A stretch of 64,000 nt of DNA, taken from assembly GCA_002315505.1 (NCBI GenBank), contig DCGX01000057.1:2240-66239 (forward strand), read 5' to 3'. Position numbers and translations under genes: made by a program. Of the stretch, positions 52,558 through 64,000 are shown piece after piece; positions within the stretch are counted from its first letter, which is position 1; every line of letters begins with the position of its first letter. Origin of the DNA: Ruminococcaceae bacterium UBA1767 (GTDB taxonomy: Bacteria > Bacillota > Clostridia > Oscillospirales > Acutalibacteraceae). The notes under the pieces were generated by a model that saw only the letters and a list, made by a program, of their open reading frames with translations, ran no database searches and had not been told where the DNA came from.

Positions 52558-53355
52558 TTAGAGGATATAAATCGTTACGCCACGTCTGCCGAAATCATAG
52601 CAGGTTGATGACGAAGAGAAATAAAGGTCGCAAAGCGTTGCACTGCTTCCTGTCCAGTAAATGAATCCACCTGTATCCTCTGCTGAAGCATAGCCGTATA
52701 CATACTTACCGTCATTTGATACAATCCACATCTTTGTATGATACGGAATCTGATTCGGATTAACAGCAATGTAGCCCGGTCTTACATTCTTGCCTGTTGC
52801 TGTAACTCCGCCGCCGGAATAAGCAGAAGCTGTACCTGTTAACTTTTTGGAATATGATACAGGAACCAAATCCTTTGTGAGCTTTAATCCACTCGGAACC
52901 TCAAGTGTTGAATACGCTCTGACATTGCTTGCAAGAATTGTGCTGACAGCTGTTGTTGTCGGTCTTGTTGTTGTAATCTTTGTAGTGGTGGTTGTAGTTG
53001 TTTTCTTTGTTGTTGTAGTTGTTGTTGTTTTCTTAGTCGTAGTGGTAGTTGTTGTTGTTTTCTTTGTAGTCGGAGTAGTTGCGGCAGCAGCGCTCTTCTC
53101 CTTGTACGAAACTGTGAGCTTAAGAATTTCAATAGCATCAACCGAATTAATTTTAAGGTCTCTGTTAACATCGGCCTTAATTATTGAATTTACTTTCTTT
53201 GTTGCACCAACAACATACTGTAATACATGCAAAGCATCCTGTGAGTTTACCGCTCCGTCATCATTTGCATCGCCCTTGAGGTCACTCGCATAACCTGCCG
53301 ATACACTTGATACAATAATTAACATAGCCACGATGGCTGCAATTACTCTTTTCAT
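52558..53355 (-). CDS. secreted protein: N-terminal type-I dockerin, Thr/Lys-rich linker, C-terminal 3D (MltA/RlpA-like double-psi beta-barrel) domain
   Basis: Signal peptide. Dockerin pair GDANDDGAVNSQDALHVLQYV / ADVNRDLKINSVDAIEILK. (T7-8 KK)n linker. C-terminal TGTASAYSGGGVTATGKNVRPGYIAVNPNQIPYHTKMWIV...AEDTGG typical of 3D domains. Confidence 0.65.
   Translation of the reverse strand: MKRVIAAIVAMLIIVSSVSAGYASDLKGDANDDGAVNSQDALHVLQYVVGATKKVNSIIKADVNRDLKINSVDAIEILKLTVSYKEKSAAAATTPTTKKTTTTTTTTKKTTTTTTTKKTTTTTTTKITTTRPTTTAVSTILASNVRAYSTLEVPSGLKLTKDLVPVSYSKKLTGTASAYSGGGVTATGKNVRPGYIAVNPNQIPYHTKMWIVSNDGKYVYGYASAEDTGGFIYWTGSSATLCDLYFSSSSTCYDFGRRGVTIYIL
52978..53090. repeat. imperfect tandem repeat of 27-30 bp, about 3.5 copies, encoding the Thr/Lys linker
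   Basis: Units of the type TTTGTTGTTGTAGTTGTTGTTGTTTTC on the plus strand; in-frame coding repeat. Confidence 0.7.
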
Positions 53356-55423: not shown

Positions 55424-56254
55424 TTATTCTTCAGTAACCTTATACTGCTCCATATCAGCCTTGATAGCCTCAAGTGCTTCCATGTCGTATCTCTTAACAC
55501 CGAATTTCTCAACGAATGTGTTGTAAGGAACTCTGTCAACATATGTTTCCTTATACTTAACATTGACACCCTTAACCTTAGCAACAATATTAATAGCAAG
55601 AACGAGAGCAAATGCCACAATTGTGAGGTAGGCACCGATTCCAACTGAACCGCTAACGAGGTCAGGAAGAACCACTTCAATGTTATCAATGAACTTGCCG
55701 TAAGCTACGATCGAAGTAACTGTACCGACAATACCGAGAGATGAAAGAATTACGTTTCTTGAGAAGCCGTGAGGTGAGCAGGAAAGGAAGCTGAGAATCA
55801 ATCCGAGCAATGCACAAACAGCAGCAAGTGCAATACCAACAATTGCAACCGCAAAGAATGTGAAACCGGTTCCCATAATTTTCGAACCGATCATTGCGAA
55901 AAGTCCGTCAAAGTCCATAGCCGAAACCTTGTTATAAACCTCAAGTACATTAATGGTAGTATCCTTATTGTAATAAGGAGCTACAATATGCATAGTTGCA
56001 AGCGGAAGGAAAAGCATTCCGACTGTAGCAAGAAGGAAAACAAGTCTTACAATAGTAAGAGCTGAACCAACCATAGAAGCCTTTGCTCTGTCAATCCTCT
56101 GCTGAGTCTTAGCATGTTCAAGCTCAGCATTGATAGCATCAACTTCAAGACGCTCCTCAATTTTGTAGTAAAGAAGATTAACTCCGCAACCGGGACAAGT
56201 AGGTTTTAAATCAAAAAGTTTGAGCTTTCTGCCGCATTTCGGACAATTAGCCAT
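55424..56254 (-). CDS. hypothetical membrane protein with an N-terminal zinc ribbon
   Basis: MANCPKCGRKLKLFDLKPTCPGCG ribbon, a coiled segment, then about four TM helices. The ATG at 56254 follows GGAGGG. Confidence 0.55.
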   Translation of the reverse strand: MANCPKCGRKLKLFDLKPTCPGCGVNLLYYKIEERLEVDAINAELEHAKTQQRIDRAKASMVGSALTIVRLVFLLATVGMLFLPLATMHIVAPYYNKDTTINVLEVYNKVSAMDFDGLFAMIGSKIMGTGFTFFAVAIVGIALAAVCALLGLILSFLSCSPHGFSRNVILSSLGIVGTVTSIVAYGKFIDNIEVVLPDLVSGSVGIGAYLTIVAFALVLAINIVAKVKGVNVKYKETYVDRVPYNTFVEKFGVKRYDMEALEAIKADMEQYKVTEE

Positions 56255-56384
56255 CAGGATCCCTCCAAAAATTTTTACATCGAGTGGCACAAATCCACAT
56301 TGCATTTATTTTATCACACATTTTTACATAAATCAAGATAAAATTAATCAAAATTCATCAAATATGTAAATTGATTTTTCAAAA

Positions 56385-57113
56385 TCAGATAAATCCACCG
56401 TCAACACCGAGAATCTGACCTGTAATAAAACCGGAGCCCTTATCGGCAAAAAGCATTACAGCCCCTGCAACATCTTCAGGAGTACCGATTCTTCCGACAG
56501 GAGTTTCATTTTTCAATTCGTCCATCGTTTCCGAATCAAAGCCGCTGTTCATCGGTGTATCAATTACTCCGGGAGCAATGGCATTCACCGTAATGCCCGA
56601 AGGAGCAACCTCCTTTGCAAGAGCCTTTGTCATACCGACAATTGCGGATTTCGATGCCGAATAATGCACCTCGCACGAAGCTCCGCTGATTCCCCACATC
56701 GAAGTAATGTTTATAATTCTGCCGTATTTATGGTGAATCATCTGCGGTAACGCCCTCTGCGAACAATAAAATGCACTTCTTACATTGCAGTTGAACATCC
56801 GGTCATAATCGTCATCTGTAATATCCGTAAAGAGCTTTTGCTGAGCAATACCCGCATTATTCACGAGCACATCGACAAAGCCGAAATTCTTTTCAGCCTC
56901 GCTGAACAATCTCTCAACATCTTCTCTTACAGAAACATCAGCCTGTACTGCAATAGCACAGGCTCCGTTTTTCTTTAATTTATCAAGAAGCTCAATTGCT
57001 TCTTTTTCGCTCGATTTATAGTTTATTACAACATTATTATTTTCAGCCGCAAAAGCAGATACAACAGCCGCACCTATTCCCCTTGCCGAGCCTGTTACAA
57101 TTACGGTGCTCAT
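56385..57113 (-). CDS. short-chain dehydrogenase/reductase, 3-oxoacyl-ACP reductase-like
   Basis: TGSARGIG, NNAG, YSASK motifs; 242 aa. Confidence 0.75.
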   Translation of the reverse strand: MSTVIVTGSARGIGAAVVSAFAAENNNVVINYKSSEKEAIELLDKLKKNGACAIAVQADVSVREDVERLFSEAEKNFGFVDVLVNNAGIAQQKLFTDITDDDYDRMFNCNVRSAFYCSQRALPQMIHHKYGRIINITSMWGISGASCEVHYSASKSAIVGMTKALAKEVAPSGITVNAIAPGVIDTPMNSGFDSETMDELKNETPVGRIGTPEDVAGAVMLFADKGSGFITGQILGVDGGFI

Positions 57114-58036
57114 TGACCGAGTGCGCCTGCAAGTGCTTCTTCATCAATCTTTGTGAAGCCCTTGAGTGAGAACAGCTTTGAATCAGCCTCATCTGTAAAT
57201 GACGAAACCTCAAATACGGTTGCTGTGCCTTCTGAATCAACGCTCTCCCAGCGAACCCAGTTTTCGTCTTTATCAAAGTAATACTTAATTGTTGCGCCCT
57301 CTGAAGAATATTCCTCACAGGTATAATCCTCAACCTTCGTTGTCTTAACATATGTCTGCTCAGAATTCAAATCAGCGAAATTTCCGAGAGTATCATCAGT
57401 ATCACCTGATTCGGCATACATCTTCAATGCAGGGAAAATGAGATACATCTTTCCGTCAAGTGAAAGAAGACGCATGTTCCATCCGCTGTAGGTTACATCC
57501 ATACAAAGATTATCATTGTCAAAAGCAATTGTTGCGGGAATTTTAGTGTCACCCGAAATAATATCTGTCTTAAGAGTGAATTTTTTGCTCTTGATAACCT
57601 TCTCAATAACTGTTTCACGAAGAGTCTTCTTTGAAGTCTGCTTAACTGTTGTTCCTTCGGGAAGAGTGTTTTCCGGTGCAGCAGTTACAACCATATCGCT
57701 GTTTGCGAGGTCCTCAAGTCCTGCAAGACCTGTTGTGGTTGTTTCACCCTTTGAGTTTTTCTTTGAAGCGGAATCCGAGCCGTTCTTTTTCTCGGATTTG
57801 CTTTTTTCTTTTTCAATCTTTTCTTTTTCTTTATCAGAAAGCACGGAAGTTACTGTTTCACCGCTTGCATCAGTAACCGACTCGCCGTTTTTATCTGTAA
57901 CCTCAACATAAGCTGAGCCTTCAGCATTAGTCATCGTAACGTCTGCATCGGCAACGTCCTTCTTACCGCAGGCAGCAAAGCTCATTACAGCGAGCAGCGT
58001 TGCCAATATAATACAAAAACCCTTTTTCATAATCAT
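57110..58036 (-). CDS. hypothetical lipoprotein
   Basis: Lipobox FAAC after the signal peptide, a Ser/Lys/Glu-rich linker and a beta-rich C-terminal domain. ATGA overlap with the SDR gene. Confidence 0.55.
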   Translation of the reverse strand: MIMKKGFCIILATLLAVMSFAACGKKDVADADVTMTNAEGSAYVEVTDKNGESVTDASGETVTSVLSDKEKEKIEKEKSKSEKKNGSDSASKKNSKGETTTTGLAGLEDLANSDMVVTAAPENTLPEGTTVKQTSKKTLRETVIEKVIKSKKFTLKTDIISGDTKIPATIAFDNDNLCMDVTYSGWNMRLLSLDGKMYLIFPALKMYAESGDTDDTLGNFADLNSEQTYVKTTKVEDYTCEEYSSEGATIKYYFDKDENWVRWESVDSEGTATVFEVSSFTDEADSKLFSLKGFTKIDEEALAGALGQ

Positions 58037-58141
58037 TACCTCCAGTTGGTTTTGTTACAATATAAGAGTACAATATTTTCGCAATAAAATCAAGTGAATA
58101 ATTTGTTAATTTATTATGTATTTTTTAATTTTCAAAAATAC

Positions 58142-58170
58142 TTGAAATTTTGTGTAGAATATATTATAAT
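58142..58170 (+). promoter_or_regulatory. sigma-A promoter of tRNA-Thr
   Basis: TTGAAA (58142-58147), 17-nt spacer, TATAAT (58165-58170). The tRNA begins 13 nt later. Confidence 0.7.
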
Positions 58171-58182
58171 AATCTCCACAAT

Positions 58183-58258
58183 GCTAATATGGCTCAGTTG
58201 GTAGAGCAGATCATTCGTAATGATCAGGTCGTCGGTTCGAGTCCGACTATTAGCTCCA
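58183..58258 (+). tRNA. tRNA-Thr (anticodon CGU), CCA encoded
   Basis: Cloverleaf folded by hand. Acceptor GCTAATA/TATTAGC, D stem GCTC/GAGC, anticodon stem GATCA/TGATC with loop TTCGTAA (CGT at 58216-58218). Variable loop AGGTC, T arm GTCGG-TTCGAGT-CCGAC, discriminator T, then CCA. Confidence 0.9.
58219..58258 (+). repeat. left 40-bp direct repeat (attL-like) = 3' part of tRNA-Thr
   Basis: AATGATCAGGTCGTCGGTTCGAGTCCGACTATTAGCTCCA is identical to 59095-59134. Confidence 0.95.
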
Positions 58259-58330
58259 CGATATAAAGCACGAAGAATAGCCATATTTCCCTAATACCAA
58301 CGGATTTACGGCTATTCTTTGTATTTTATA

Positions 58331-58370
58331 GTTTTAGCTTGTTTTAGTTAGGTTTAGTTGGTTGTGCTAG
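58331..58370 (+). repeat. four helically phased 10-bp tandem units
   Basis: GTTTTAGCTT GTTTTAGTTA GGTTTAGTTG GTTGTGCTAG. Confidence 0.7.
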
Positions 58371-58387
58371 TCAAAAGGATATTAATA

Positions 58388-58513
58388 ATGAGCAATGAAA
58401 TTAATATAACAATAAGGGATACGAAAGAGGAAACAAGGATTATTCTATTATTCCGAAAACTACCCGAGAAAGTCAAGCAAAAAATCTTGAATATGATTAT
58501 TAAAAAAGAATAA
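58388..58513 (+). CDS. hypothetical 41-aa protein (island ORF1)
   Basis: AAAGGA 8 nt before the ATG. MSNEINITIRDTKEETRIILLFRKLPEKVKQKILNMIIKKE. A strong terminator follows. Coding status unproven. Confidence 0.35.
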   Translation: MSNEINITIRDTKEETRIILLFRKLPEKVKQKILNMIIKKE

Positions 58514-58520
58514 AACATTT

Positions 58521-58553
58521 TCCGCAGAGTTTTAAAACTTTGCGGATTTTTTT
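58521..58553 (+). terminator. rho-independent terminator inside the island
   Basis: TCCGCAGAGTT-ttaa-AACTTTGCGGA (one G-U pair) followed by TTTTTTT. Confidence 0.85.
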
Positions 58554-58583
58554 GACAATTTTCAAATTATTTTAAAAAAAGTG

Positions 58584-58612
58584 TTGGCTTTTCACGCATT
58601 GCGTGATATAAT
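58584..58612 (+). promoter_or_regulatory. strong sigma-A promoter (extended -10) inside the island
   Basis: TTGGCT (58584-58589), 17-nt spacer, TGa-TATAAT (58607-58612). Confidence 0.7.
58593..58605 (+). promoter_or_regulatory. perfect palindrome (candidate operator) in the promoter spacer
   Basis: CACGCA-t-TGCGTG lies between the -35 and the -10. Confidence 0.55.
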
Positions 58613-58643
58613 ATAGACACAGTTAAGGAAAGGAGGATGCCGA

Positions 58644-58766
58644 ATGTCAAACAAAAAAAGCAGTGATAAGAACCTTCTTCAAATCGCTCTTATCACCGCT
58701 ATAGTCAGCTTGATAAACAGTTTGATAACTTTAATTGAAAAGATTATCGAAACCTTTAACAAGTAA
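58644..58766 (+). CDS. hypothetical 40-aa hydrophobic peptide (island ORF2)
   Basis: AGGAGG 7 nt before the ATG. MSNKKSSDKNLLQIALITAIVSLINSLITLIEKIIETFNK: basic N-terminus, one predicted helix of about 21 residues. Confidence 0.5.
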   Translation: MSNKKSSDKNLLQIALITAIVSLINSLITLIEKIIETFNK

Positions 58767-58815
58767 CTTAACAAGGGGAGTTGGAAAGCTCCTTTTCCCC
58801 TCTGTTTACATTCTA

Positions 58816-58941
58816 ATGTTTTGTTTGATATTTGTCAAGTTAATTATGATTTTAGATATTATTCAGATTACCTTGTCAGTTATTTCAATCATTTTATCTT
58901 GCGTAATTATTTTCAAAATAATAAGAAAGGACAAAAAATGA
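58816..58941 (+). CDS. hypothetical 41-aa very hydrophobic peptide with a basic C-terminus (island ORF3)
   Basis: MFCLIFVKLIMILDIIQITLSVISIILSCVIIFKIIRKDKK. Its TGA stop overlaps the ATG of the HTH gene (ATGA). No recognisable SD, so coding status is uncertain. Confidence 0.35.
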   Translation: MFCLIFVKLIMILDIIQITLSVISIILSCVIIFKIIRKDKK

Positions 58942-59099
58942 ATATTAAGGAACTCAGACAGATAACCGGATTAACTCAGCAAGCATTTTCAGATAAATAC
59001 GGTATTCCAAAGCGAACTATTGAAGATTGGGAAGCCGAAAGAAGAACACCACCGACCTATGTTATCGAGCTGTTGAAATTCCGAATTGAACATGAATGA
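58938..59099 (+). CDS. small XRE-type helix-turn-helix DNA-binding protein (53 aa)
   Basis: ELRQITGLTQQAFSDKYGIPKRTIEDWEAERRTPP is a typical HTH_XRE core. AAAGGA RBS. The stop codon (59097-59099) lies inside the right-hand 40-bp repeat. Confidence 0.7.
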   Translation: MNIKELRQITGLTQQAFSDKYGIPKRTIEDWEAERRTPPTYVIELLKFRIEHE

Positions 59100-59134
59100 T
59101 CAGGTCGTCGGTTCGAGTCCGACTATTAGCTCCA
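59095..59134 (+). repeat. right 40-bp direct repeat (attR-like), orphan 3' half of tRNA-Thr
   Basis: Identical to 58219-58258. No matching 5' tRNA half lies upstream. Confidence 0.95.
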
Positions 59135-59135
59135 G

Positions 59136-59166
59136 AGCACCGCAGGAATGTGGTGCTTTTATTTTT
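59136..59166 (+). terminator. rho-independent terminator, probably the ancestral tRNA-Thr terminator
   Basis: AGCACC...GGTGCT stem followed by TTTTATTTTT, directly after the orphan CCA end. Confidence 0.65.
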
Positions 59167-59170
59167 ACAC

Positions 59171-59207
59171 AAAAGCAGCTTCCGACTCATCATCGAAAGC
59201 TGCTTTT
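59171..59207 (-). terminator. rho-independent terminator of the YhhN-family gene
   Basis: 11-bp stem AAAAGCAGCTT...AAGCTGCTTTT overlapping the stop codon. T-run on the minus strand. Confidence 0.7.
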
Positions 59208-59956
59208 TACTTAATAAGGAAATACGCAGACAGAACAATTGAATACTGTCCGAAATAATATAAAATATGATTAAACACTATATCCTTTTTAGTGTTTTTA
59301 TTTTTACCGAAATATGTTCCGTTCAGTACGGCATCCGAACCGAGTATTGACAGTAAGCCCAGGTAAATCAATATGTTTTCCACGTCAAATCCGTTTGTGG
59401 TAATATTCAGAATAGATACATTTACCGCCAAAAAAATAATTCCCGAATACAAAGCCGCAATCGGCTTATATTTTCCGAATTCAACCCTCAGAATCTTTTC
59501 GATATTTATTGTTATGAATGCAATAATAACCGAAACACCAATTAAAATCAAAATAACTGTCTTTTTCTCAAACAGATTTCCCGAATAAATCAGAGATATG
59601 GTATAAAACAAATGCCCTAATATGAACGAAGCGAAGCCACGTTTCAGAAAAAAATCACTTTCTTTACTGTACACGCATTTTAAATCAAGAAGGACATCTC
59701 CGACAAATCCAAAAAACATTCCGACAGTAAGCAAAAAAACAGCAATACCGTTATTTAAACAAGCAGGATTATCTGCAGTAAATTTTGAAAGAGAATACAA
59801 AACAATAGTTGATGATGCCATAACAAACGGCAAGCTGGCAACCGCCTTCATTCCGACATCCTTAACTGTCGGCTTTGGTGTGCGATGAATAATAAATCTG
59901 ACCACTGAAAAAATACCAAAAGTAAAAAACAACGCAAAAATTCCCTTGAACAACAT
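59207..59956 (-). CDS. YhhN-family (lysoplasmalogenase-like) polytopic membrane protein
   Basis: About 8 TM helices with the two family-type motifs FVGDVLLDL and LGSDAVLNG. AAGGAG RBS. Confidence 0.55.
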   Translation of the reverse strand: MLFKGIFALFFTFGIFSVVRFIIHRTPKPTVKDVGMKAVASLPFVMASSTIVLYSLSKFTADNPACLNNGIAVFLLTVGMFFGFVGDVLLDLKCVYSKESDFFLKRGFASFILGHLFYTISLIYSGNLFEKKTVILILIGVSVIIAFITINIEKILRVEFGKYKPIAALYSGIIFLAVNVSILNITTNGFDVENILIYLGLLSILGSDAVLNGTYFGKNKNTKKDIVFNHILYYFGQYSIVLSAYFLIK

Positions 59957-59988
59957 TTGACTGTCTCCTTTTGATTTTGCTTTAGTAC

Positions 59989-60017
59989 ATTATATACTAA
60001 AACATATATAAAATCAA
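59989..60017 (-). promoter_or_regulatory. sigma-A promoter of the YhhN-family gene
   Basis: Minus strand: TTGATT (60017-60012), 17-nt spacer, TATAAT (59994-59989). Confidence 0.6.
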
Positions 60018-60150
60018 CTGATTTTTATTTATTGTTTATAAAAAATTCTACTTTGAATTAACGAAACATAGTAAAAATTATTAATATATCAATATTTATT
60101 CAATTATACAGACAAAACAAAGAGTCATCCTTCACGCATTTTTTAATATT

Positions 60151-60250
60151 TCGGTAGGATGTATCACTGTGTGCACCCGATAAATTTTCAGCAAAGTTAA
60201 GCCAAAGTTTGTACAGACCTCAGGCGACAGGTTGTCGCCACTACAAAACA
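60151..60250 (+). repeat. hairpin-rich intergenic repeat element, copy B
   Basis: GGTAGGATGTATCACTGTGTGCACCCGA, then CCTCAG, then the perfect hairpin GGCGACA-ggt-TGTCGCC, then CTACAAAAC. Outer TTTGTA/TACAAA pairing. Confidence 0.5.
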
Positions 60251-60306
60251 TACAATAACATATTCGCATCAATAATTTATAAGTTCGTATTTAAAGGAAA
60301 GTATAC

Positions 60307-61686
60307 TTATTTTGTGAAAGTGATATAAAGCATTGAGCCTGCTTCAATTTTTTCAGGAAGCGGAATTTCAACCCATTCACCATTTTCATTTACCGTCCAG
60401 CATTTGTCAGCTGTGTACTCCCCTGCGTCAAATTTGAGCTTTCTGTCCCTTTTTTCCGAAACATTGGAAATAAGAATCGCCGCACTTCCGTCATCGCCCT
60501 TTGCGGCAACAGCATACATATCATCACGGAGCTTATTCTTTATTTCAACCTGGTTGCCCATTTCATAAAGCTGACCGAAGGCATAGAAGCCGTAATAAGC
60601 AGATGTCGGCTTGCCGCCCTTATAGAACATTCCTGCGTGAAGAGCGCCTGTTGCAATCGCGCAATAATAATACGCCTTATCAAGACCTTCATTCTGGAAC
60701 ATAAGAAGCATTGAGGTCTGATTTGCGCCGTAACGGCGGTCTATCTGGTCATTTTCCGTAGGATTGTAGTTCCATTCATCGCAGATAACTTCCGCATCGC
60801 CGTAGCCTGCTTCCTGAAGATTATCGTTTACATATTCAATCCAGCGTGTATTTACCTCGGTTGTCGAATAGCTGTGCCATGAGAAGAAATCCATAGGCGG
60901 TTTATTTTCTTCAATGTAGTCAAGAAATCCCTGGAAGAACTCAACAAAGTATTTATTGTATGCGGGAGCGCCCGACTTTACGTTATTTGTCTTTGTTAAT
61001 GCATAAAATCCGCATGAGCCGTAACCTCCGATTTTGAGGTCGGGGAACTTTTCTTTGAGATACGTTGCGGAAACATCGTAAAGGCGGTAGAATTCCTCGG
61101 GAGAGCCGTGCCAGAAAACATTTTCTGTCTTATATTCGGTTTCGGAAATTTCTTCGTATTTGCCACCATCGGGTTCATTCCATATTTCCCAGTATTCGAT
61201 ATTATAGTTATATCCGTTTGCCCAGCCTTCGTTATAGTGACGGATTATGTGCTCGCAAATCTGCGCCCATTTGGTGTAATCCGTCGGCGGCAGAAGAAGC
61301 TCGTGGTCTTTCTGTGCATTGCTGTAGCTTATTCCAAGACGGAAGAAAGGTGTCATACCCGTATCAACAATAGCCGCAAGCACTTTGTCGCACTCCGTAA
61401 AATTATATGATTTTTCATCATTTACATCCGCCGAAAAATCAGGAAAAATGTTGTGAATATCAGTACAGTTAATATCATGCGTTCTGCATGATGTCATATT
61501 TGCATCGGTGAAACATTTATTTATTTCACTGTCAAGCTCATATTCGGGCATTCTGCCTACATTATGAACGGGTCTGATTTCGTCGATAACATTGTCAAAA
61601 TCAATTCTGATAACATTCGGTGTAAAAACCATCTGCGAAAACGAAATAATAAATGCAAGAATTGATGCAATTGCTCTGTTAAACAT
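60307..61686 (-). CDS. glycoside hydrolase, clan GH-A TIM barrel (GH39-like) with a C-terminal beta-sandwich
   Basis: N-terminal signal or anchor. YWEIWNEPD acid/base block, FFSWHSY, and a candidate nucleophile in VICDEWNY. Confidence 0.55.
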   Translation of the reverse strand: MFNRAIASILAFIISFSQMVFTPNVIRIDFDNVIDEIRPVHNVGRMPEYELDSEINKCFTDANMTSCRTHDINCTDIHNIFPDFSADVNDEKSYNFTECDKVLAAIVDTGMTPFFRLGISYSNAQKDHELLLPPTDYTKWAQICEHIIRHYNEGWANGYNYNIEYWEIWNEPDGGKYEEISETEYKTENVFWHGSPEEFYRLYDVSATYLKEKFPDLKIGGYGSCGFYALTKTNNVKSGAPAYNKYFVEFFQGFLDYIEENKPPMDFFSWHSYSTTEVNTRWIEYVNDNLQEAGYGDAEVICDEWNYNPTENDQIDRRYGANQTSMLLMFQNEGLDKAYYYCAIATGALHAGMFYKGGKPTSAYYGFYAFGQLYEMGNQVEIKNKLRDDMYAVAAKGDDGSAAILISNVSEKRDRKLKFDAGEYTADKCWTVNENGEWVEIPLPEKIEAGSMLYITFTK

Positions 61687-61835
61687 AATACCGCCTCCGA
61701 TTATACTTTTAGTAATTATCTCATAAATCTGTTAATTTATCAACATAATTATTTGTTATTCACGGGAACTTACAGGCAAACAAATCGATTGATGAGATTT
61801 TTTCGCTCTACTCCTTGAAATGACGTAGCTTAGTT

Positions 61836-61942
61836 TATTTTGTAGTTTTCGTAGAGGACGATGCCCACATCATCCGTGAATTACTCCCTCAGTCTGCTAT
61901 GCTCTCTCACGAGGGAGCCTTAATTGTAAATTGTGCATTGAA
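61836..61942 (-). repeat. hairpin-rich intergenic repeat element, copy C (inverted relative to A and B)
   Basis: Minus-strand order: AATGCACAATTTACAATT, then the CTCCCTC..AGCATAG..GAGGGAG hairpin, then the GGATGATG..CATCGTCC hairpin, then CCTCTACGAAAACTACAAAA. Same module order as copy A. Confidence 0.55.
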
Positions 61943-61970
61943 CAAGTCGGAATTGTTATCTACACAATTA

Positions 61971-62016
61971 TAAAAAGATAAAGCTGTGACAAAAGCATCA
62001 TTACTCTTGTCACAGC
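61971..62016 (-). terminator. rho-independent terminator of rpoC
   Basis: 10-bp stem GCTGTGACAA...TTGTCACAGC followed on the minus strand by TTTATCTTTTT. Confidence 0.8.
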
Positions 62017-62029
62017 ATATTTAATTATT

Positions 62030-64000
62030 TTATTCAGCCTTTGCTGCTTCTGCCTGAGCGAGAGCATCACCGAAAGCTGTTGAAGGTCTTTCCTCTGTTG
62101 AACGAAGCTCAACCTCAGAATAGCACTTCATACCTGTACCTGACGGAAGGAGCTTACCGATAATTACGTTCTCCTTAAGTCCGAGGAGCGGGTCTGACTT
62201 GCCCTTGATAGCGGCATCTGTAAGAACTCTTGTTGTTTCCTGGAATGATGCAGCTGAAAGGAATGACTCTGTTGCAAGAGAAGCCTTTGTGATACCCATA
62301 AGTGTCGGGCTTACTGTTGCAAGATTCGGCTCTGTGCCTTCCTGTGCAGCCTTTGCCTTAAGAGCATCGTTTGCTGAGTAGAACTCGTGCTTCTCGATGA
62401 TTGAACCCGGAAGGAAATCAGTATCGCCTGCGTCCTCAACCTTAACCTTACGCATCATCTGACGAACAATAACCTCGATGTGCTTATCGTTGATATCAAC
62501 ACCCTGTGTACGATATGTCTTCTGAACTTCACGGATAAGATAATCGTGAACAGCTTCAACACCACGAATTGCAAGAATGTCGTGCGGATTAGGAGCACCA
62601 TCTGTAAGTGCCTGGCCCTTCTTAACGAAGTCGCCTTCCTTAACAAGCTCACGGAAGCCGTAAGGAATAAGATATGTCTTAGCCTCACCATCTTCGTTAT
62701 TAGTAATAACAACGTGACGGCTCTTCTTGATTTCTTCAAATGAAACTACACCGCTGATTTCTGAAAGGATTGCGAGTGCCTTCGGCTTTCTTGCCTCGAA
62801 AAGTTCTTCGATACGCGGAAGACCCTGTGTGATATCGCCGGCATCCTTAGCACCACCGGTATGGAATGTTCTCATTGTAAGCTGTGTACCCGGCTCACCG
62901 ATTGACTGAGCAGCGATAATACCAACAGCCTCACCTACTGTAACAGGCTGACCTGTTGCAAGGTTTGAACCATAGCACTTGATACATACGCCGTGCTCTG
63001 ACTTACAGGTAAGAAGTGAACGAATTACAACTGAAGCAGATGAATCTGCATCCGCCTTGCCTGCGTCAATAAGTGCCTGATGCTTTTCCTTTGCATTATT
63101 TGCAACTCTTTCTGCATCCTCGCCTGTCATCATCTTATCGCAGGTCATAATAACCTCGCCTGTTTCCTCATCAACGTAATCGTTGAGAAGATAACGACCG
63201 GTAAGACGCTCTGCAAGACTAACAATCTTTCTGCCGTCATGGAAGATATCATATACTTCGATACCCTCATCGCATCCGCAATCTTCATCGTGAATGATAC
63301 ATTCCTGTGAAACGTCAACAAGACGTCTTGTAAGGTAACCAGAGTCAGCAGTACGAAGAGCTGTATCTGCAAGTCCTTTACGAGCACCACGGGAAGAAAT
63401 GAAGTATTCAAGAATATTCAAGCCTTCACGGTAGTTAGCCTTGATAGGTACTTCGATTGTCTTACCTGCTGTATTTGCGATAAGTCCACGCATACCGGCA
63501 AGCTGACGAAGCTGTGAATCATTACCACGGGCACCGGAATCAAGCATCATGTTGATTGGGTTATATTTATCAAAGTTTGCCTTGAGCTCTTTAGCAACTT
63601 CCTGTGTGCACTGCTCCCAAACTTCGATGATTTTGTCTGAACGAACTGTATTTGTGATAAGACCACGCTCATAGTTACGTGTAATCTTATCAACCTTTGC
63701 CTCTGCTTCTGCAAGAAGCTGTTTCTTTGCAGGCGGAATTGTTGCATCGAATGCAGCAACAGTGATACCGCTTCGTGTTGAGTGCTTGTAGCCCTGTGCC
63801 TTGATATCATCAAGCATCTTAGCGGCTACTGATGTACCGTGAACACGGATACATTTATCAATAATCTTACCGAGGTTGCCCTTCTTAACGAGGAATTCAA
63901 CCTCAAGGCGGAACATACTGTCGATATCTTCAGGATTACGCTCAACAAAGCCAAGATCCTGAGGAATAGGATTGTTGAAGATAACCTTACCGAGTGTTGT
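62030..64000 (-). CDS. rpoC: DNA-directed RNA polymerase subunit beta', C-terminal part (5' end outside the window)
   Basis: The frame stays open to nt 64000 (TTLGKVIFNNPIPQDLGF... upstream of the track's internal Met). Conserved blocks LRTFHTGG and GGLPRVAELFEAR-like (QGLPRIEELFEARKPK). Confidence 0.95.
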   Translation of the reverse strand, partial: TTLGKVIFNNPIPQDLGFVERNPEDIDSMFRLEVEFLVKKGNLGKIIDKCIRVHGTSVAAKMLDDIKAQGYKHSTRSGITVAAFDATIPPAKKQLLAEAEAKVDKITRNYERGLITNTVRSDKIIEVWEQCTQEVAKELKANFDKYNPINMMLDSGARGNDSQLRQLAGMRGLIANTAGKTIEVPIKANYREGLNILEYFISSRGARKGLADTALRTADSGYLTRRLVDVSQECIIHDEDCGCDEGIEVYDIFHDGRKIVSLAERLTGRYLLNDYVDEETGEVIMTCDKMMTGEDAERVANNAKEKHQALIDAGKADADSSASVVIRSLLTCKSEHGVCIKCYGSNLATGQPVTVGEAVGIIAAQSIGEPGTQLTMRTFHTGGAKDAGDITQGLPRIEELFEARKPKALAILSEISGVVSFEEIKKSRHVVITNNEDGEAKTYLIPYGFRELVKEGDFVKKGQALTDGAPNPHDILAIRGVEAVHDYLIREVQKTYRTQGVDINDKHIEVIVRQMMRKVKVEDAGDTDFLPGSIIEKHEFYSANDALKAKAAQEGTEPNLATVSPTLMGITKASLATESFLSAASFQETTRVLTDAAIKGKSDPLLGLKENVIIGKLLPSGTGMKCYSEVELRSTEERPSTAFGDALAQAEAAKAE

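What the first reader, a model, noticed from the sequence alone, without database searches (positions are those of the whole stretch)
58219..59134. 876-bp integrase-less insertion in tRNA-Thr(CGU) bounded by perfect 40-bp att-like direct repeats
What the sequence shows. Nt 58219-58258 run from anticodon-loop position 37 to the encoded CCA of an intact, promoter-driven tRNA-Thr. These 40 nt recur without a mismatch at 59095-59134, where no 5' tRNA half precedes them. A hairpin and T-run (59136-59166) follow the second copy and look like the original tRNA terminator. What is established. Duplication of a tRNA 3' end is the classic footprint of tyrosine-recombinase integration by a phage, ICE or genomic island. 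What is unusual. The 836 bp between the repeats encode no recombinase at all. They hold only a phased 10-bp repeat block, one terminator, one strong operator-bearing promoter and four ORFs of 53 aa or fewer. Interpretation (inference). This is either the deletion remnant of a larger element, or a cis/trans-mobilisable mini-element that keeps functional att sites and depends on an integrase encoded elsewhere. The second case would resemble the CIMEs described next to ICEs in Streptococcus thermophilus. The repeats are 100% identical, and the HTH ORF ends exactly inside the right repeat. Both points argue that the structure is young or under selection rather than decaying.
Basis: partly seen in the sequence, partly recalled or inferred. 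Interest (0 to 1): 0.72.

Follow-up and report, generated by a model that had tools for sequence, protein, structure and literature searches.

The report
Integrase-less prophage remnant in tRNA-Thr
An 876-bp insertion in a threonine tRNA gene is most likely what remains of an integrated phage: both attachment sites survive, along with one small self-regulated accessory gene cassette of a kind found in many gut and rumen prophages, which makes it an ordinary kind of relic with an interesting cargo.

Summary
An intact tRNA-Thr(CGU) lies at 58183-58258. Its last 40 nt recur perfectly at 59095-59134, followed by a terminator. The 836 bp between hold no recombinase.

The cargo is phage-derived, not ICE-derived. 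Its promoter carries the palindrome TCACGCATTGCGTGA, and its terminal 53-aa XRE HTH gene is homologous to a cassette found in more than 40 phage, prophage or MAG loci of Ruminococcus, Lachnospiraceae and other Clostridia.

In a full-length tRNA-Asn siphovirus prophage, a tyrosine integrase sits next to the intact tRNA and the cassette sits next to the displaced tRNA fragment. The window keeps equivalents of both ends but has lost integrase through lysis.

I favour a decayed prophage (about 0.6) over a trans-mobilisable mini-element (about 0.2). The right arm lacks the left arm's repeat motifs. No empty site turned up, no element sharing the 40-nt core, and no recombinase among the window ORFs tested. 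All four same-species metagenome samples carry the insertion.

The retained cassette is promoter/operator, 40-aa membrane peptide, GC hairpin, 31-aa membrane peptide, HTH. A position-conserved antisense promoter makes it resemble type I toxin-antitoxin loci of prophages.

Verdict: new member of a known kind, moderate-low interest.

The parts
58142..58170 (+). Promoter of tRNA-Thr (TTGAAA-17-TATAAT)
   Evidence: 11/12 consensus match. It ends 13 nt before the tRNA.
58183..58258 (+). Intact tRNA-Thr(CGU) with encoded CCA. Its 3' 40 nt form the attL core.
   Evidence: ARAGORN. Rfam tRNA 71.1 bits.
58219..58258 (.). Left copy of the 40-nt direct repeat (attL core), from tRNA position 37 to CCA
   Evidence: the repeat finder D1, 100% identity
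58262..58330 (+). Element-supplied hairpin terminator for the tRNA. In a circular form it would terminate the HTH operon.
   Evidence: 29-nt arms. dG -26.6 kcal/mol, z -5.4, followed by a U-rich tract. The attL side of the full-length tRNA-Asn prophage has a hairpin in the same position.
58331..58363 (.). Phased 10-bp repeats (GTTTTAG / TTTAGTT), putative arm-type integrase sites of the P' arm
   Evidence: TRF period 10, 3.2 copies, score 37. Motif positions. Analogous repeats lie between the terminator and int in L118. The function is inferred.
58388..58513 (+). orf41, an orphan 41-aa ORF; coding status uncertain
   Evidence: Called as a gene in the same-species contigs. No homologue other than itself in 5.8 billion proteins or 1.84 billion representatives. 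No Pfam, NCBIfam or PADLOC hit.
58521..58546 (.). Palindromic intrinsic terminator that insulates the cassette
   Evidence: 11-bp stem plus a run of 7 T. dG -15.6, z -6.2.
58584..58612 (+). Cassette promoter (TTGGCT-17-TATAAT with an extended -10 TG). The 15-bp palindromic operator TCACGCATTGCGTGA (58592-58606) lies in the spacer.
   Evidence: Homologous promoter/operators occur in L001-L006, L016-L024, L028 and L034-L058.
58644..58766 (+). pepA (p40), a 40-aa peptide with a polar, basic N-terminus, one transmembrane segment and a strong GGAGG ribosome-binding site
   Evidence: Positional counterparts of 39-48 aa occur in L006, L022, L023, L024 and L037. It is 46% identical over 37 aa to the C-terminus of a Hol44 holin in L016; this is weak.
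58770..58806 (.). GC-rich hairpin between pepA and pepB, with no T-run
   Evidence: dG -16.4, z -2.8. A GC hairpin occupies the same position in four other cassette lineages although the sequences differ.
58810..58838 (-). Antisense sigma-70 promoter TTGACA-17-TAGAAT, pointing at the hairpin and pepA
   Evidence: 11/12. The best minus-strand promoter lies at relative position 216-226 in all six two-peptide cassettes: L006 12/12, L024 11/12, L023 10/12, L022 extended -10, L037 9/12.
58846..58941 (+). pepB (p31), a 31-aa transmembrane peptide with a basic tail. Its stop overlaps the HTH start (ATGA).
   Evidence: Counterparts of 26-53 aa occur in L006, L022-L024, L028 and L037. It has no clear ribosome-binding site.
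58938..59099 (+). 53-aa XRE-type HTH regulator, the last gene of the cassette. Its stop codon lies inside the attR core.
   Evidence: Pfam HTH_3 3.7e-7. The best NCBIfam match is the MqsA-family antitoxin HTH at 25.9 bits, below the 61.8 cut-off. About 45 homologues at 40-83% identity sit downstream of the same operator.
59095..59134 (.). Right copy of the 40-nt direct repeat (attR core), the displaced tRNA 3' fragment
   Evidence: ARAGORN finds no tRNA here.
59134..59159 (+). Original tRNA terminator, which now ends the HTH operon
   Evidence: dG -16.7, z -5.4, then a T-run

Best explanation
The 876-bp unit is the decayed remainder of a temperate phage that integrated, through a tyrosine integrase, into the 3' part of tRNA-Thr(CGU).

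Integration duplicated the tRNA segment from position 37 to CCA. The element supplied the new tRNA 3' end and a new terminator (58262-58330). The original tRNA terminator was left behind the displaced fragment.

One or more later deletions removed everything from the integrase to the lysis genes. Three things remain:
- the P' arm, made of the terminator and the 10-bp repeats;
- an orphan ORF with its terminator;
- one complete accessory ('moron'-type) cassette that abuts attR.

The cassette is a self-contained transcription unit. A sigma-70 promoter carries a 15-bp palindrome in its spacer. That palindrome is most likely the binding site of the XRE HTH dimer encoded by the last gene, which would give negative autoregulation (inferred). 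The promoter drives two small membrane peptides, pepA (40 aa) and pepB (31 aa), and then the HTH.

A conserved antisense promoter between the two peptide genes probably makes an RNA complementary to the pepA 3' region and hairpin, as in type I toxin-antitoxin loci (inferred).

The relic is probably no longer excisable. A toxin-antitoxin-like or host-beneficial cassette would explain why this piece survived while the rest of the prophage was lost.

Shown: the anatomy, the homology to prophage cassettes, the absence of a recombinase, and the architecture of the full-length relative. Inferred: the deletion history, HTH-operator binding, the antisense RNA and the peptide function.
For: **1. Integration footprint.** An intact tRNA, a perfect 40-nt 3' repeat, an element-supplied terminator after attL and the host terminator after attR.

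**2. Phage origin of the cargo.**
- The promoter/operator and the HTH are homologous to cassettes in IMG/VR contigs. L001 encodes terminase, minor capsid protein 2 and scaffold. L006 encodes tape measure, Dit, holin and amidase. L016 encodes a tail endopeptidase, a Hol44 holin and a GH25 lysin.
- A search with the promoter pattern alone returned 19 viral loci. Sixteen of them have an HTH homologue 0.07-2 kb downstream on the same strand. The other three are short loci, two of them with too little DNA held downstream of the promoter.

**3. Full-length model (contig IMGVR_UViG_3300045988_077217, L054 + L118).** The order is: intact tRNA-Asn, phage-supplied terminator hairpin, short repeats, 443-aa tyrosine integrase (PF00589, 4.9e-16), ImmA, then (lysis genes seen in the same prophage in L006), the cassette, the arm, the tRNA-Asn 3' fragment and the host terminator.
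- The window's left end has the same order, terminator then repeats, but no int follows.
- The cassette lies 118-157 nt from the att core in 11 of 60 tRNA-Asn attR ends with enough sequence, and in 0 of 39 attL ends. It is therefore an optional, att-adjacent accessory module.

**4. Signs of decay at attR.**
- The HTH is the shortest of the homologues; its closest C-terminal relatives (L003, L016) run 3 residues further.
- It has no hairpin terminator of its own directly after the stop, which most homologues have.
- The left-arm repeat motifs have no copy in the 200 nt left of attR. In the tRNA-Asn phage, by contrast, the arm hexamer TGTTGT recurs on both arms.

**5. No recombinase.** Within the repeats only HTH_3 is found. 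None appears among the 27 further window ORFs scanned with Pfam; all that match a family match non-recombinase, mostly housekeeping, families.

**6. Composition.** Cargo G+C is about 0.30, against 0.40-0.45 in the flanking genes.

**7. A real cassette subfamily.** Window, L006, L022/L023, L024 and L037/L039 share the order promoter/operator, strong RBS, TM peptide, GC hairpin, antisense promoter, TM peptide, HTH, although the peptides and hairpins differ in sequence.
Against: - No full-length relative integrated in tRNA-Thr was found, so the deletion history is inferred by analogy with a prophage at a different tRNA. That prophage's cassette is inverted relative to the att core.
- The cargo contains no recognisable gene fragments (no int or lysis pseudogenes). 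Both att cores are perfect, and the cassette looks fully intact. This is unusually 'clean' for random decay and is equally compatible with a selected mini-element.
- If the circle is closed in silico, the HTH stop, the core and the strong terminator 58262-58330 form a coherent operon end. The HTH-core junction could therefore be a native attP rather than a deletion scar.
- The arm-motif argument rests on short, weak repeats (TRF score 37).
- Only near-identical strains (99.7% identity or more) were available. Neither fixation nor polymorphism of the insertion could really be tested.
Confidence: 0.6

Rival explanations
1. The unit is a functional non-autonomous mini-element, CIME-like or satellite-like. 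Both att sites remain competent, and an integrase (with an excisionase) from a related phage, resident elsewhere in the genome or incoming, can excise and re-integrate it. A phage could also integrate next to it and carry it along by tandem accretion. The toxin-antitoxin-like cassette stabilises it.
For: - The two 40-nt cores are perfect.
- The left arm keeps a terminator and phased repeats laid out as at the attL of a full-length prophage.
- There are no pseudogene debris, and the cassette is intact.
- The closed circle gives a coherent operon end: HTH stop, core, terminator.
- CIMEs with exactly this definition are documented (PMC5704250).
Against: - No counterpart of the arm motif lies left of attR. 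The HTH coding sequence abuts the core directly, so there is no room for a non-coding P arm.
- The core has no exact match in any collection searched.
- No recombinase was found among the ORFs scanned with Pfam in the 64-kb window.
- The insertion is present in all four same-species samples, and no empty site was seen.
- The cargo's relatives are phage modules, not ICE or IME modules.
Confidence: 0.2
2. The promoter/operator-payload-HTH cassette is itself the unit of exchange. Phages would acquire such att-adjacent accessory modules by integrating beside an att-flanked cassette like this one and then excising with the outer sites. On this reading the window shows the free, chromosomal state of a cassette 'donor site' and not a decayed prophage.
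For: - The cassette lies next to att sites in several unrelated prophages and in different orientations: L006 and L040 at tRNA-Asn, L024 at tRNA-Lys, L047 at a tmRNA-like fragment.
- It is optional among otherwise similar tRNA-Asn prophages (11 of 60).
- Its payload varies widely.
- In L001 and L002 it also sits inside the structural module, behaving like a moron.
Against: - No prophage examined has a second, internal att copy on the far side of the cassette. No 12-mer of the core recurs in L006 or L047.
- The window cargo has no degenerate internal att copy.
- Ordinary illegitimate or homologous recombination between phages explains moron mosaicism without this mechanism.
Confidence: 0.08
3. 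The duplication did not come from an integrase. On this reading a phage-derived fragment was inserted by illegitimate or microhomology-mediated recombination next to the tRNA, or a local rearrangement copied the tRNA 3' half.
For: - The repeat starts only 2 nt before the end of the anticodon loop. A 7-nt anticodon-loop overlap region is therefore not shared by attL and attR.
- The HTH gene is fused to the fragment with no spacer.
Against: - A repeat running exactly to the CCA end, an intact regenerated tRNA, a new terminator supplied directly after it and the old terminator after the fragment form the canonical tyrosine-integrase signature (Islander principle, PMC4383910; sublocations in bioRxiv 10.1101/2020.11.02.365908).
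- The crossover may lie in the T-loop, which is inside the repeat.
- The same layout is seen at the tRNA-Asn prophage ends.
Confidence: 0.05

Closest known systems
Prophage remnants and genomic islets at tRNA genes (displaced tRNA 3' fragment marks the end; Islander-type islands)
   Same: - Intact tRNA plus a direct repeat of its 3' part that runs to CCA.
- Foreign, lower-GC cargo.
- An element-supplied terminator.
- Cargo homologous to prophage modules.
   Different: - It is extremely small (836 bp) and has no integrase or integrase pseudogene.
- Islander-type detection relies on an integrase gene inside the island, so a relic like this would probably escape it (my reading of PMC4383910, abstract only).
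CIMEs (cis-mobilizable elements) of Streptococcus thermophilus and other streptococci
   Same: It is bounded by attL and attR and has lost its integration genes. [quoted passage not shown]
   Different: - CIMEs derive from ICEs or IMEs and are mobilised by accretion with an incoming ICE. Here the relatives are siphovirus prophages.
- No partner element and no accretion was found.
- attR appears to lack a P arm.
Accessory ('moron' / lysogenic-conversion) cassettes between the lysis module and attR of temperate Firmicutes siphoviruses
   Same: - An autonomous promoter and terminator.
- An att-adjacent position next to holin and endolysin genes in L006, L016 and L024.
- Optional presence and variable payload.
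   Different: - Here the cassette survives without the phage.
- The family is defined by a conserved operator-bearing promoter and a terminal XRE HTH. I could not find this family described.
Prophage-borne type I toxin-antitoxin loci, e.g. yonT-yoyJ/SR6 and bsrG/SR4 on SPbeta of Bacillus subtilis, and type I TA loci of Clostridioides difficile prophages
   Same: - Small hydrophobic peptides sit on a polycistronic mRNA.
- A convergent antisense promoter lies between the two peptide genes. SR6 overlaps the yonT 3' end and the yoyJ 5' end (PMC5848175).
- The loci sit in prophages or prophage remnants (PMC6563280).
   Different: - There is no sequence or Rfam similarity to known toxins or antitoxin RNAs.
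- Toxicity and the antisense RNA are untested.
- The operon additionally ends in an XRE HTH with its own operator, which classical type I loci lack.
XRE/MqsA-type HTH antitoxins and regulators of type II TA systems (MqsA, HipB, NadS)
   Same: It is a small HTH_3 protein with the ...PKRTIEDWE...RRxP motif. Its best NCBIfam matches are the MqsA-family and Y4mF/HipB-type antitoxins. Distant tblastn hits include proteins annotated NadS and 'Xre family antitoxin'. Autoregulation through a palindromic operator is typical of these proteins.
   Different: - All matches are far below the family cut-offs (25.9 against 61.8 bits).
- There is no zinc-ribbon domain.
- The partner genes are tiny membrane peptides, not MqsR-, HipA- or RelE-type toxins.

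Membership tests
tRNA-integrated element made by a tyrosine integrase (island / prophage) | Intact target tRNA at one end and a direct repeat of its 3' segment at the other | tested here: met
   tRNA-Thr 58183-58258. 40/40-nt repeat at 59095-59134.
tRNA-integrated element made by a tyrosine integrase (island / prophage) | Integrase gene inside the element, usually next to one att site | tested here: not met
   The only Pfam hit within 58259-59094 is HTH_3. No recombinase among the 27 further window ORFs scanned.
tRNA-integrated element made by a tyrosine integrase (island / prophage) | Presence/absence polymorphism (an empty site in relatives) | tested here: inconclusive
   Only strains at 99.7% identity or more were found, and all are occupied. 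The contigs of the YhhN homologues are not syntenic.
Prophage remnant | Cargo homologous to sequences of bona fide phages | tested here: met
   Homologues of the promoter/operator and the HTH lie in contigs that encode terminase, capsid, tail, holin, endolysin and integrase genes.
Prophage remnant | Loss of the modules needed for a phage life cycle | tested here: met
   836 bp with ORFs of 53 aa or fewer
Prophage remnant | A full-length relative at the same att site | tested here: not met
   The 40-nt core has 0 exact hits in viral contigs, genome contigs and metagenome contigs. The 25-nt sub-core has 0 in viral contigs. The metagenome collection does not contain even this species' own contigs, so the power of that scan is low.
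CIME (cis-mobilizable element) | Retains attL and attR and lacks integration and transfer genes | tested here: met
   Definition from PMC5704250. The competence of attR is doubtful.
CIME (cis-mobilizable element) | Derived from an ICE or IME | tested here: not met
   The loci whose flanks I annotated are siphovirus prophages or phage contigs. No conjugation or relaxase genes were seen in them. L004's payload includes a 300-aa protein I read by eye as ArdC-like, a type also known from conjugative elements (not tested).
CIME (cis-mobilizable element) | Excision or transfer in cis after accretion with a related autonomous element | not testable with these tools
   This needs read-level or experimental data. 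No tandem array is present in the window.
Type I toxin-antitoxin system | Small hydrophobic toxic peptide | tested here: inconclusive
   pepA and pepB each have one predicted TM segment (Kyte-Doolittle maximum 2.3 for pepA), and pepA has a strong RBS. Toxicity was not tested. No family hit.
Type I toxin-antitoxin system | Antisense RNA overlapping the toxin mRNA | tested here: inconclusive
   An 11/12 antisense promoter lies at 58838-58810. Its position is conserved (216-226 nt after the promoter/operator) in all six two-peptide cassettes. No transcript data. No Rfam antitoxin family hit.
MqsA / XRE type II antitoxin families | Score above the curated family threshold | tested here: not met
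   TIGR03830 25.9 bits against 61.8. NadS 19 against 60. HipB 14.9 against 79.
Phage satellites (PICI and similar) | Own integrase, replication and helper-hijacking genes | tested here: not met
   None are present.

The most novel reading that the evidence does not exclude
The retained cargo represents an undescribed, widespread prophage module: an operator-bearing promoter, one or two tiny membrane peptides, a conserved antisense promoter and a terminal XRE HTH. It would work as a hybrid toxin-antitoxin or abortive-infection switch, with RNA antisense control layered on HTH autorepression.

The att-flanked 876-bp unit would then be a minimal, selfish, addictive 'cassette island'. It would either be kept in place by its own toxicity or be shuttled between phages by integrase-mediated accretion at att sites.
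Probability: 0.15. Interest if true: 0.65.

Novelty: new member of a known kind. Interest (0 to 1): 0.35.

Why it matters
As an integration relic, this is an ordinary kind of object. Decayed elements bounded by tRNA-derived att repeats are well known. It is, however, an unusually small and clean example, and island finders that rely on an integrase gene would probably miss it.

The useful by-product is the cargo. A conserved promoter/operator-HTH cassette with swappable payloads sits next to att sites, or inside structural modules, of many prophages of gut and rumen Clostridia. One subfamily has two tiny membrane peptides and a position-conserved antisense promoter.

If that subfamily is a toxin-antitoxin or exclusion module, it would explain why this one fragment outlived its phage. 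It would also give a compact, testable system of about 0.5 kb for phage-host conflict in poorly studied anaerobes.

Tried and rejected
**Searches that found nothing**
- BLASTN (distant mode) of the 836-bp cargo against GenBank phages and PLSDB plasmids: no match.
- Exact 40-nt core in viral, genome and metagenome collections, and a 25-nt sub-core in viral contigs: 0 hits each. The metagenome collection evidently lacks this species' own JGI contigs, so that negative is weak.
- Homologue searches for p41 and p40 in 5.8 billion proteins, and an exhaustive HMMER search for p41 against 1.84 billion representatives: only self hits.
- Rfam over 57800-59500: only the tRNA, plus a sub-threshold hit to SpF41 sRNA over the tRNA fragment and terminator. 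I judged it to reflect tRNA-fragment-plus-terminator shape and not a real family member.

**Empty-site hunt**
- YhhN homologues (64%, 54% and 31% identity) lie on non-syntenic contigs with no tRNA.
- Exact look-ups of YhhN, SDR, GH39 and the lipoprotein returned only near-identical strains or nothing.
- Two Logan contigs break inside the repeat, as expected when the duplication is present.

**att-related tests**
- Internal degenerate att copy in the cargo: the best local alignment to the tRNA scores at the shuffle mean.
- A second att copy on the far side of the cassette in L006 and L047: none.
- T-loop-like motifs about 640 bp downstream of the HTH in L035, L042, L043, L046, L049 and L052 proved to be coding sequence, not tRNA fragments.

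**Ideas set aside**
- A microhomology (TGATCAG) deletion between an L003-type HTH terminator and the tRNA anticodon stem. The predicted junction does not match the observed one.
- p40 as a holin fragment: 46% identity over 37 aa to a Hol44 C-terminus, but E is only 0.01 against the fetched loci searched at that point (about 40). I kept it as a weak lead.
- Organism identity was not established. The nearby dockerin gene and the Ruminococcus and Lachnospiraceae relatives of the cassette suggest a rumen or gut member of the Clostridia. No accessions were returned.


Full report
**1. The observation**

ARAGORN finds a single tRNA in the 64-kb window, tRNA-Thr(CGT) at 58183-58258 on the plus strand. 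Rfam scores it at 71 bits. A near-consensus promoter, TTGAAA-17-TATAAT, ends 13 nt upstream.

The last 40 nt of the gene (58219-58258, position 37 to the encoded CCA) recur without mismatch at 59095-59134. No 5' tRNA half precedes the second copy. A strong terminator follows it at 59134-59159.

The 836 bp between the repeats contain:
- a long hairpin with a U-tract directly after the tRNA (58262-58330, dG -26.6, z -5.4);
- a weak phased 10-bp repeat (58333-58363);
- a 41-aa ORF and a terminator (58521-58546);
- a promoter with a 15-bp palindrome in its spacer (58584-58612);
- ORFs of 40, 31 and 53 aa.

Only the 53-aa ORF has a family hit (HTH_3, 3.7e-7). Its stop codon (59097-59099) lies inside the right repeat.

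I add two features: a GC hairpin at 58770-58806 and an 11/12 antisense promoter at 58838-58810 on the minus strand.

**2. Context**

The window is core chromosome.
- Upstream of the tRNA lie a lipoprotein and an SDR. Downstream lie a YhhN-family membrane protein, a GH39 glycosidase and rpoC.
- Twenty further ORFs of 220-480 aa spread over the window all match housekeeping families: ATP synthase, Mur ligase, sigma-70, exonuclease VII and others. None is a recombinase.
- Cargo G+C is about 0.30, against 0.40-0.45 for the neighbouring genes.

**3. Where the cargo comes from**

BLASTN of the cargo against GenBank phages and PLSDB plasmids found nothing. The HTH protein, however, has relatives at 47-83% identity in seven IMG/VR contigs and in 18 genomes or MAGs of Ruminococcus, Lachnospiraceae and other Clostridia.

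In these loci the same promoter lies 0.07-2 kb upstream of the HTH on the same strand. It has a -35 box, the palindrome TCACGCAnTGCGTGA and a -10 box.

The reciprocal test supports the link. A scan of viral contigs with the promoter pattern alone returned 19 loci. Sixteen have an HTH homologue downstream. The other three are short loci, two of them with too little DNA held downstream of the promoter.

Promoter/operator plus terminal HTH is therefore a conserved cassette with a variable payload. Payloads range from one 66-93-aa protein to about 2 kb holding several ORFs, one of which (300 aa, L004) looks ArdC-like to me by eye.

The host contigs whose flanks I annotated are genuine phages:
- L001 has terminase, minor capsid protein 2 and scaffold.
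- L006 has tape measure, Dit, a Gp37-like tail protein, holin and amidase.
- L016 has a tail endopeptidase, a Hol44 holin and a GH25 lysin.

**4. A full-length model**

In L006 and its relatives (L054-L056, L058) the cassette lies about 150 nt from a 3' fragment of tRNA-Asn. A host terminator follows that fragment. The host flanks differ between contigs while the interior is conserved, which marks the prophage boundary.

The other end of one such contig (L118) shows, in order: the intact tRNA-Asn, a phage-supplied terminator hairpin, short TGTTGT/ACAACA repeats and a 443-aa tyrosine integrase (PF00589, 4.9e-16), followed by an ImmA-type peptidase.

The window's left end has the same order, tRNA then terminator hairpin then short repeats, but an orphan 41-aa ORF stands where the integrase would be. 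Its right end is the cassette abutting the displaced tRNA fragment.

Among 60 tRNA-Asn attR ends with enough interior sequence, 11 carry a promoter/operator 118-157 nt from the core. None of 39 attL ends does. The cassette is thus an optional, att-adjacent accessory module, that is, a moron-type unit. In L001 and L002 it sits inside the structural module instead.

**5. Relic or active mini-element?**

*For a relic:*
- The HTH (53 aa) is the shortest of about 45 homologues, which are mostly 55-60 aa. Its closest C-terminal relatives (L003, L016) run 3 residues further (...KLKHEGLI).
- It runs straight into the tRNA fragment, whereas most homologues have a hairpin terminator of their own directly after the stop.
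- The repeated motifs of the left arm (GTTTTAG, TTTAGTT) have no copy in the 200 nt left of attR. In the tRNA-Asn phage, the arm hexamer recurs on both arms.
- No recombinase is present among the window ORFs scanned.
- The 40-nt core has no exact match in IMG/VR, in 185,579 species-representative genomes or in the metagenome collection. A 25-nt sub-core has none in IMG/VR.
- The two JGI contigs of the same species (99.7-99.96% identical) have the identical arrangement. Two Logan contigs break inside the repeat, as a de Bruijn graph does at a duplicated 40-mer.

*Against a simple relic:*
- There are no pseudogene debris, both cores are perfect, and the cassette is intact.
- If the circle is closed in silico, the HTH stop, the core and the strong hairpin 58262-58330 make a coherent operon end. 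The junction could therefore be a native attP.

*Limits of the data:*
- The 14 differences between the window and L008 all lie outside 56000-59600. With about 2 expected in 876 bp, that says little.
- Relic and cis- or trans-mobilisable element are not mutually exclusive. A CIME is defined as a decayed element that has kept attL and attR (PMC5704250).

I put about 0.6 on an essentially inert prophage remnant and about 0.2 on a still-mobilisable mini-element.

**6. The att site itself**

The repeat runs from the last two bases of the anticodon loop to CCA.

Integrases are reported to target the anticodon loop, the T-loop or the asymmetric 3' end. For some groups the attB extends from the anticodon loop to CCA (bioRxiv 10.1101/2020.11.02.365908).

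Here the 7-nt loop is not shared by attL and attR. Either the crossover lies in the T-loop, which is inside the repeat, or the left edge of attR has been eroded. The data cannot decide between these.

**7. What the retained cassette probably does**

Six cassettes from five independent lineages share one layout: the window, L006, L022/L023, L024 and L037/L039. L028 has a shorter variant of the layout. The layout is:
- the promoter/operator;
- a strong GGAGG ribosome-binding site;
- pepA, 39-48 aa, with a Lys-rich end and one TM segment;
- a GC-rich hairpin without a T-run;
- pepB, 26-53 aa, a TM segment with a basic tail;
- the HTH, often with overlapping stop and start codons (ATGA in the window).

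The peptides and hairpins are not conserved in sequence.

In all six cassettes, the best minus-strand sigma-70 promoter lies at the same relative position, 216-226 nt after the sense promoter. It sits between the hairpin and pepB and points at pepA:
- L006: TTGACA-17-TATAAT, 12/12.
- Window and L024: TTGACA-17-TAGAAT, 11/12.
- L023: 10/12.
- L022: an extended -10.
- L037: 9/12.

Cassettes with other payloads (L003, L016) lack it.

This layout matches prophage type I toxin-antitoxin loci such as yonT-yoyJ/SR6 on SPbeta. There an antisense RNA starts between two small toxin genes of one operon (PMC5848175).

The best matches of the HTH are MqsA-, Y4mF/HipB- and NadS-type antitoxin HTH domains. 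All are far below the family thresholds, so I do not file it in those families.

p40 shows 46% identity over 37 aa to the C-terminus of a Hol44 holin. This is a weak lead.

My working model has two layers, both inferred. The HTH dimer represses its own operon at the palindrome. The antisense RNA additionally holds pepA in check. The function of the peptides, whether toxin, exclusion or holin-like, is unknown.

**8. Verdict**

It is an integrase-less, att-bounded insertion, but it is derived from a phage and not from an ICE. Nothing indicates current mobility.
- It is a new member of a known kind: tRNA-linked decayed integrative elements.
- The more interesting by-product is the cassette family and its antisense-promoter subfamily, which I could not find described.

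Noticed in passing
window 58584-59099; loci L001-L006, L016-L024, L028, L034-L058: A conserved cassette occurs in more than 40 phage, prophage or MAG loci of Ruminococcus, Lachnospiraceae and other Clostridia. It consists of a sigma-70 promoter with the palindrome TCACGCAnTGCGTGA in its spacer, a variable payload of 0.07-2 kb, and a terminal 55-60-aa XRE HTH, in most loci followed directly by a hairpin terminator. Some loci have two operator copies (L003, L016, L017, L057).
   Followed up: yes
window 58810-58838 (minus strand); L006, L022, L023, L024, L037: A position-conserved antisense promoter lies between the two small-peptide genes of the two-peptide subfamily, next to a structurally conserved GC hairpin. 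This suggests a type I toxin-antitoxin-like antisense RNA. No transcript evidence is available.
   Followed up: partly
window 58644-58766 vs L016 13540-13833 (-): The 40-aa peptide resembles the last 37 residues of a Hol44-family holin (PF16079) of a Ruminococcus prophage: 46% identity, pairwise E 8e-6, and E 0.01 against the fetched loci searched at that point. This could be chance between transmembrane segments.
   Followed up: partly
L114 1-6891 (IMGVR_UViG_3300008725_000141): A 6.9-kb element is flanked by the same 42-nt tRNA-Asn direct repeat used by the siphovirus prophages. It encodes a tyrosine integrase, a rolling-circle Rep and a Zot-like protein, so it looks like an integrated inovirus sharing that att site.
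   Followed up: partly
L047 14330-14424: A 3' fragment resembling the end of a tmRNA or tRNA (…GGGGGTTCAATTCCCCCCGCCTCCACCA) lies about 250 nt upstream of another promoter/operator cassette at a contig end. This is another att-adjacent cassette at a different target gene.
   Followed up: no
window 59064-59164: A sub-threshold Rfam hit to Streptococcus sRNA SpF41 (30.4 bits, gathering score 52) covers the displaced tRNA fragment and its terminator. Whether that Rfam family itself has anything to do with att remnants was not examined.
   Followed up: no
window 58388-58513: orf41 has a plausible ribosome-binding site and its own terminator. It has no homologue other than itself in 5.8 billion proteins or 1.84 billion cluster representatives. 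It may not be a real gene, or it may be lineage-specific.
   Followed up: yes
window 1-57000 and 59200-64000: The surrounding 64 kb is core chromosome: NFACT, Mur ligase, F-type ATP synthase subunits, TsaD, exonuclease VII, DnaG (by identity to contig L012), sigma-70 and rpoC. A gene carrying a dockerin domain (52558-53355) suggests a cellulosome-producing member of the Clostridia. The organism was not identified.
   Followed up: partly
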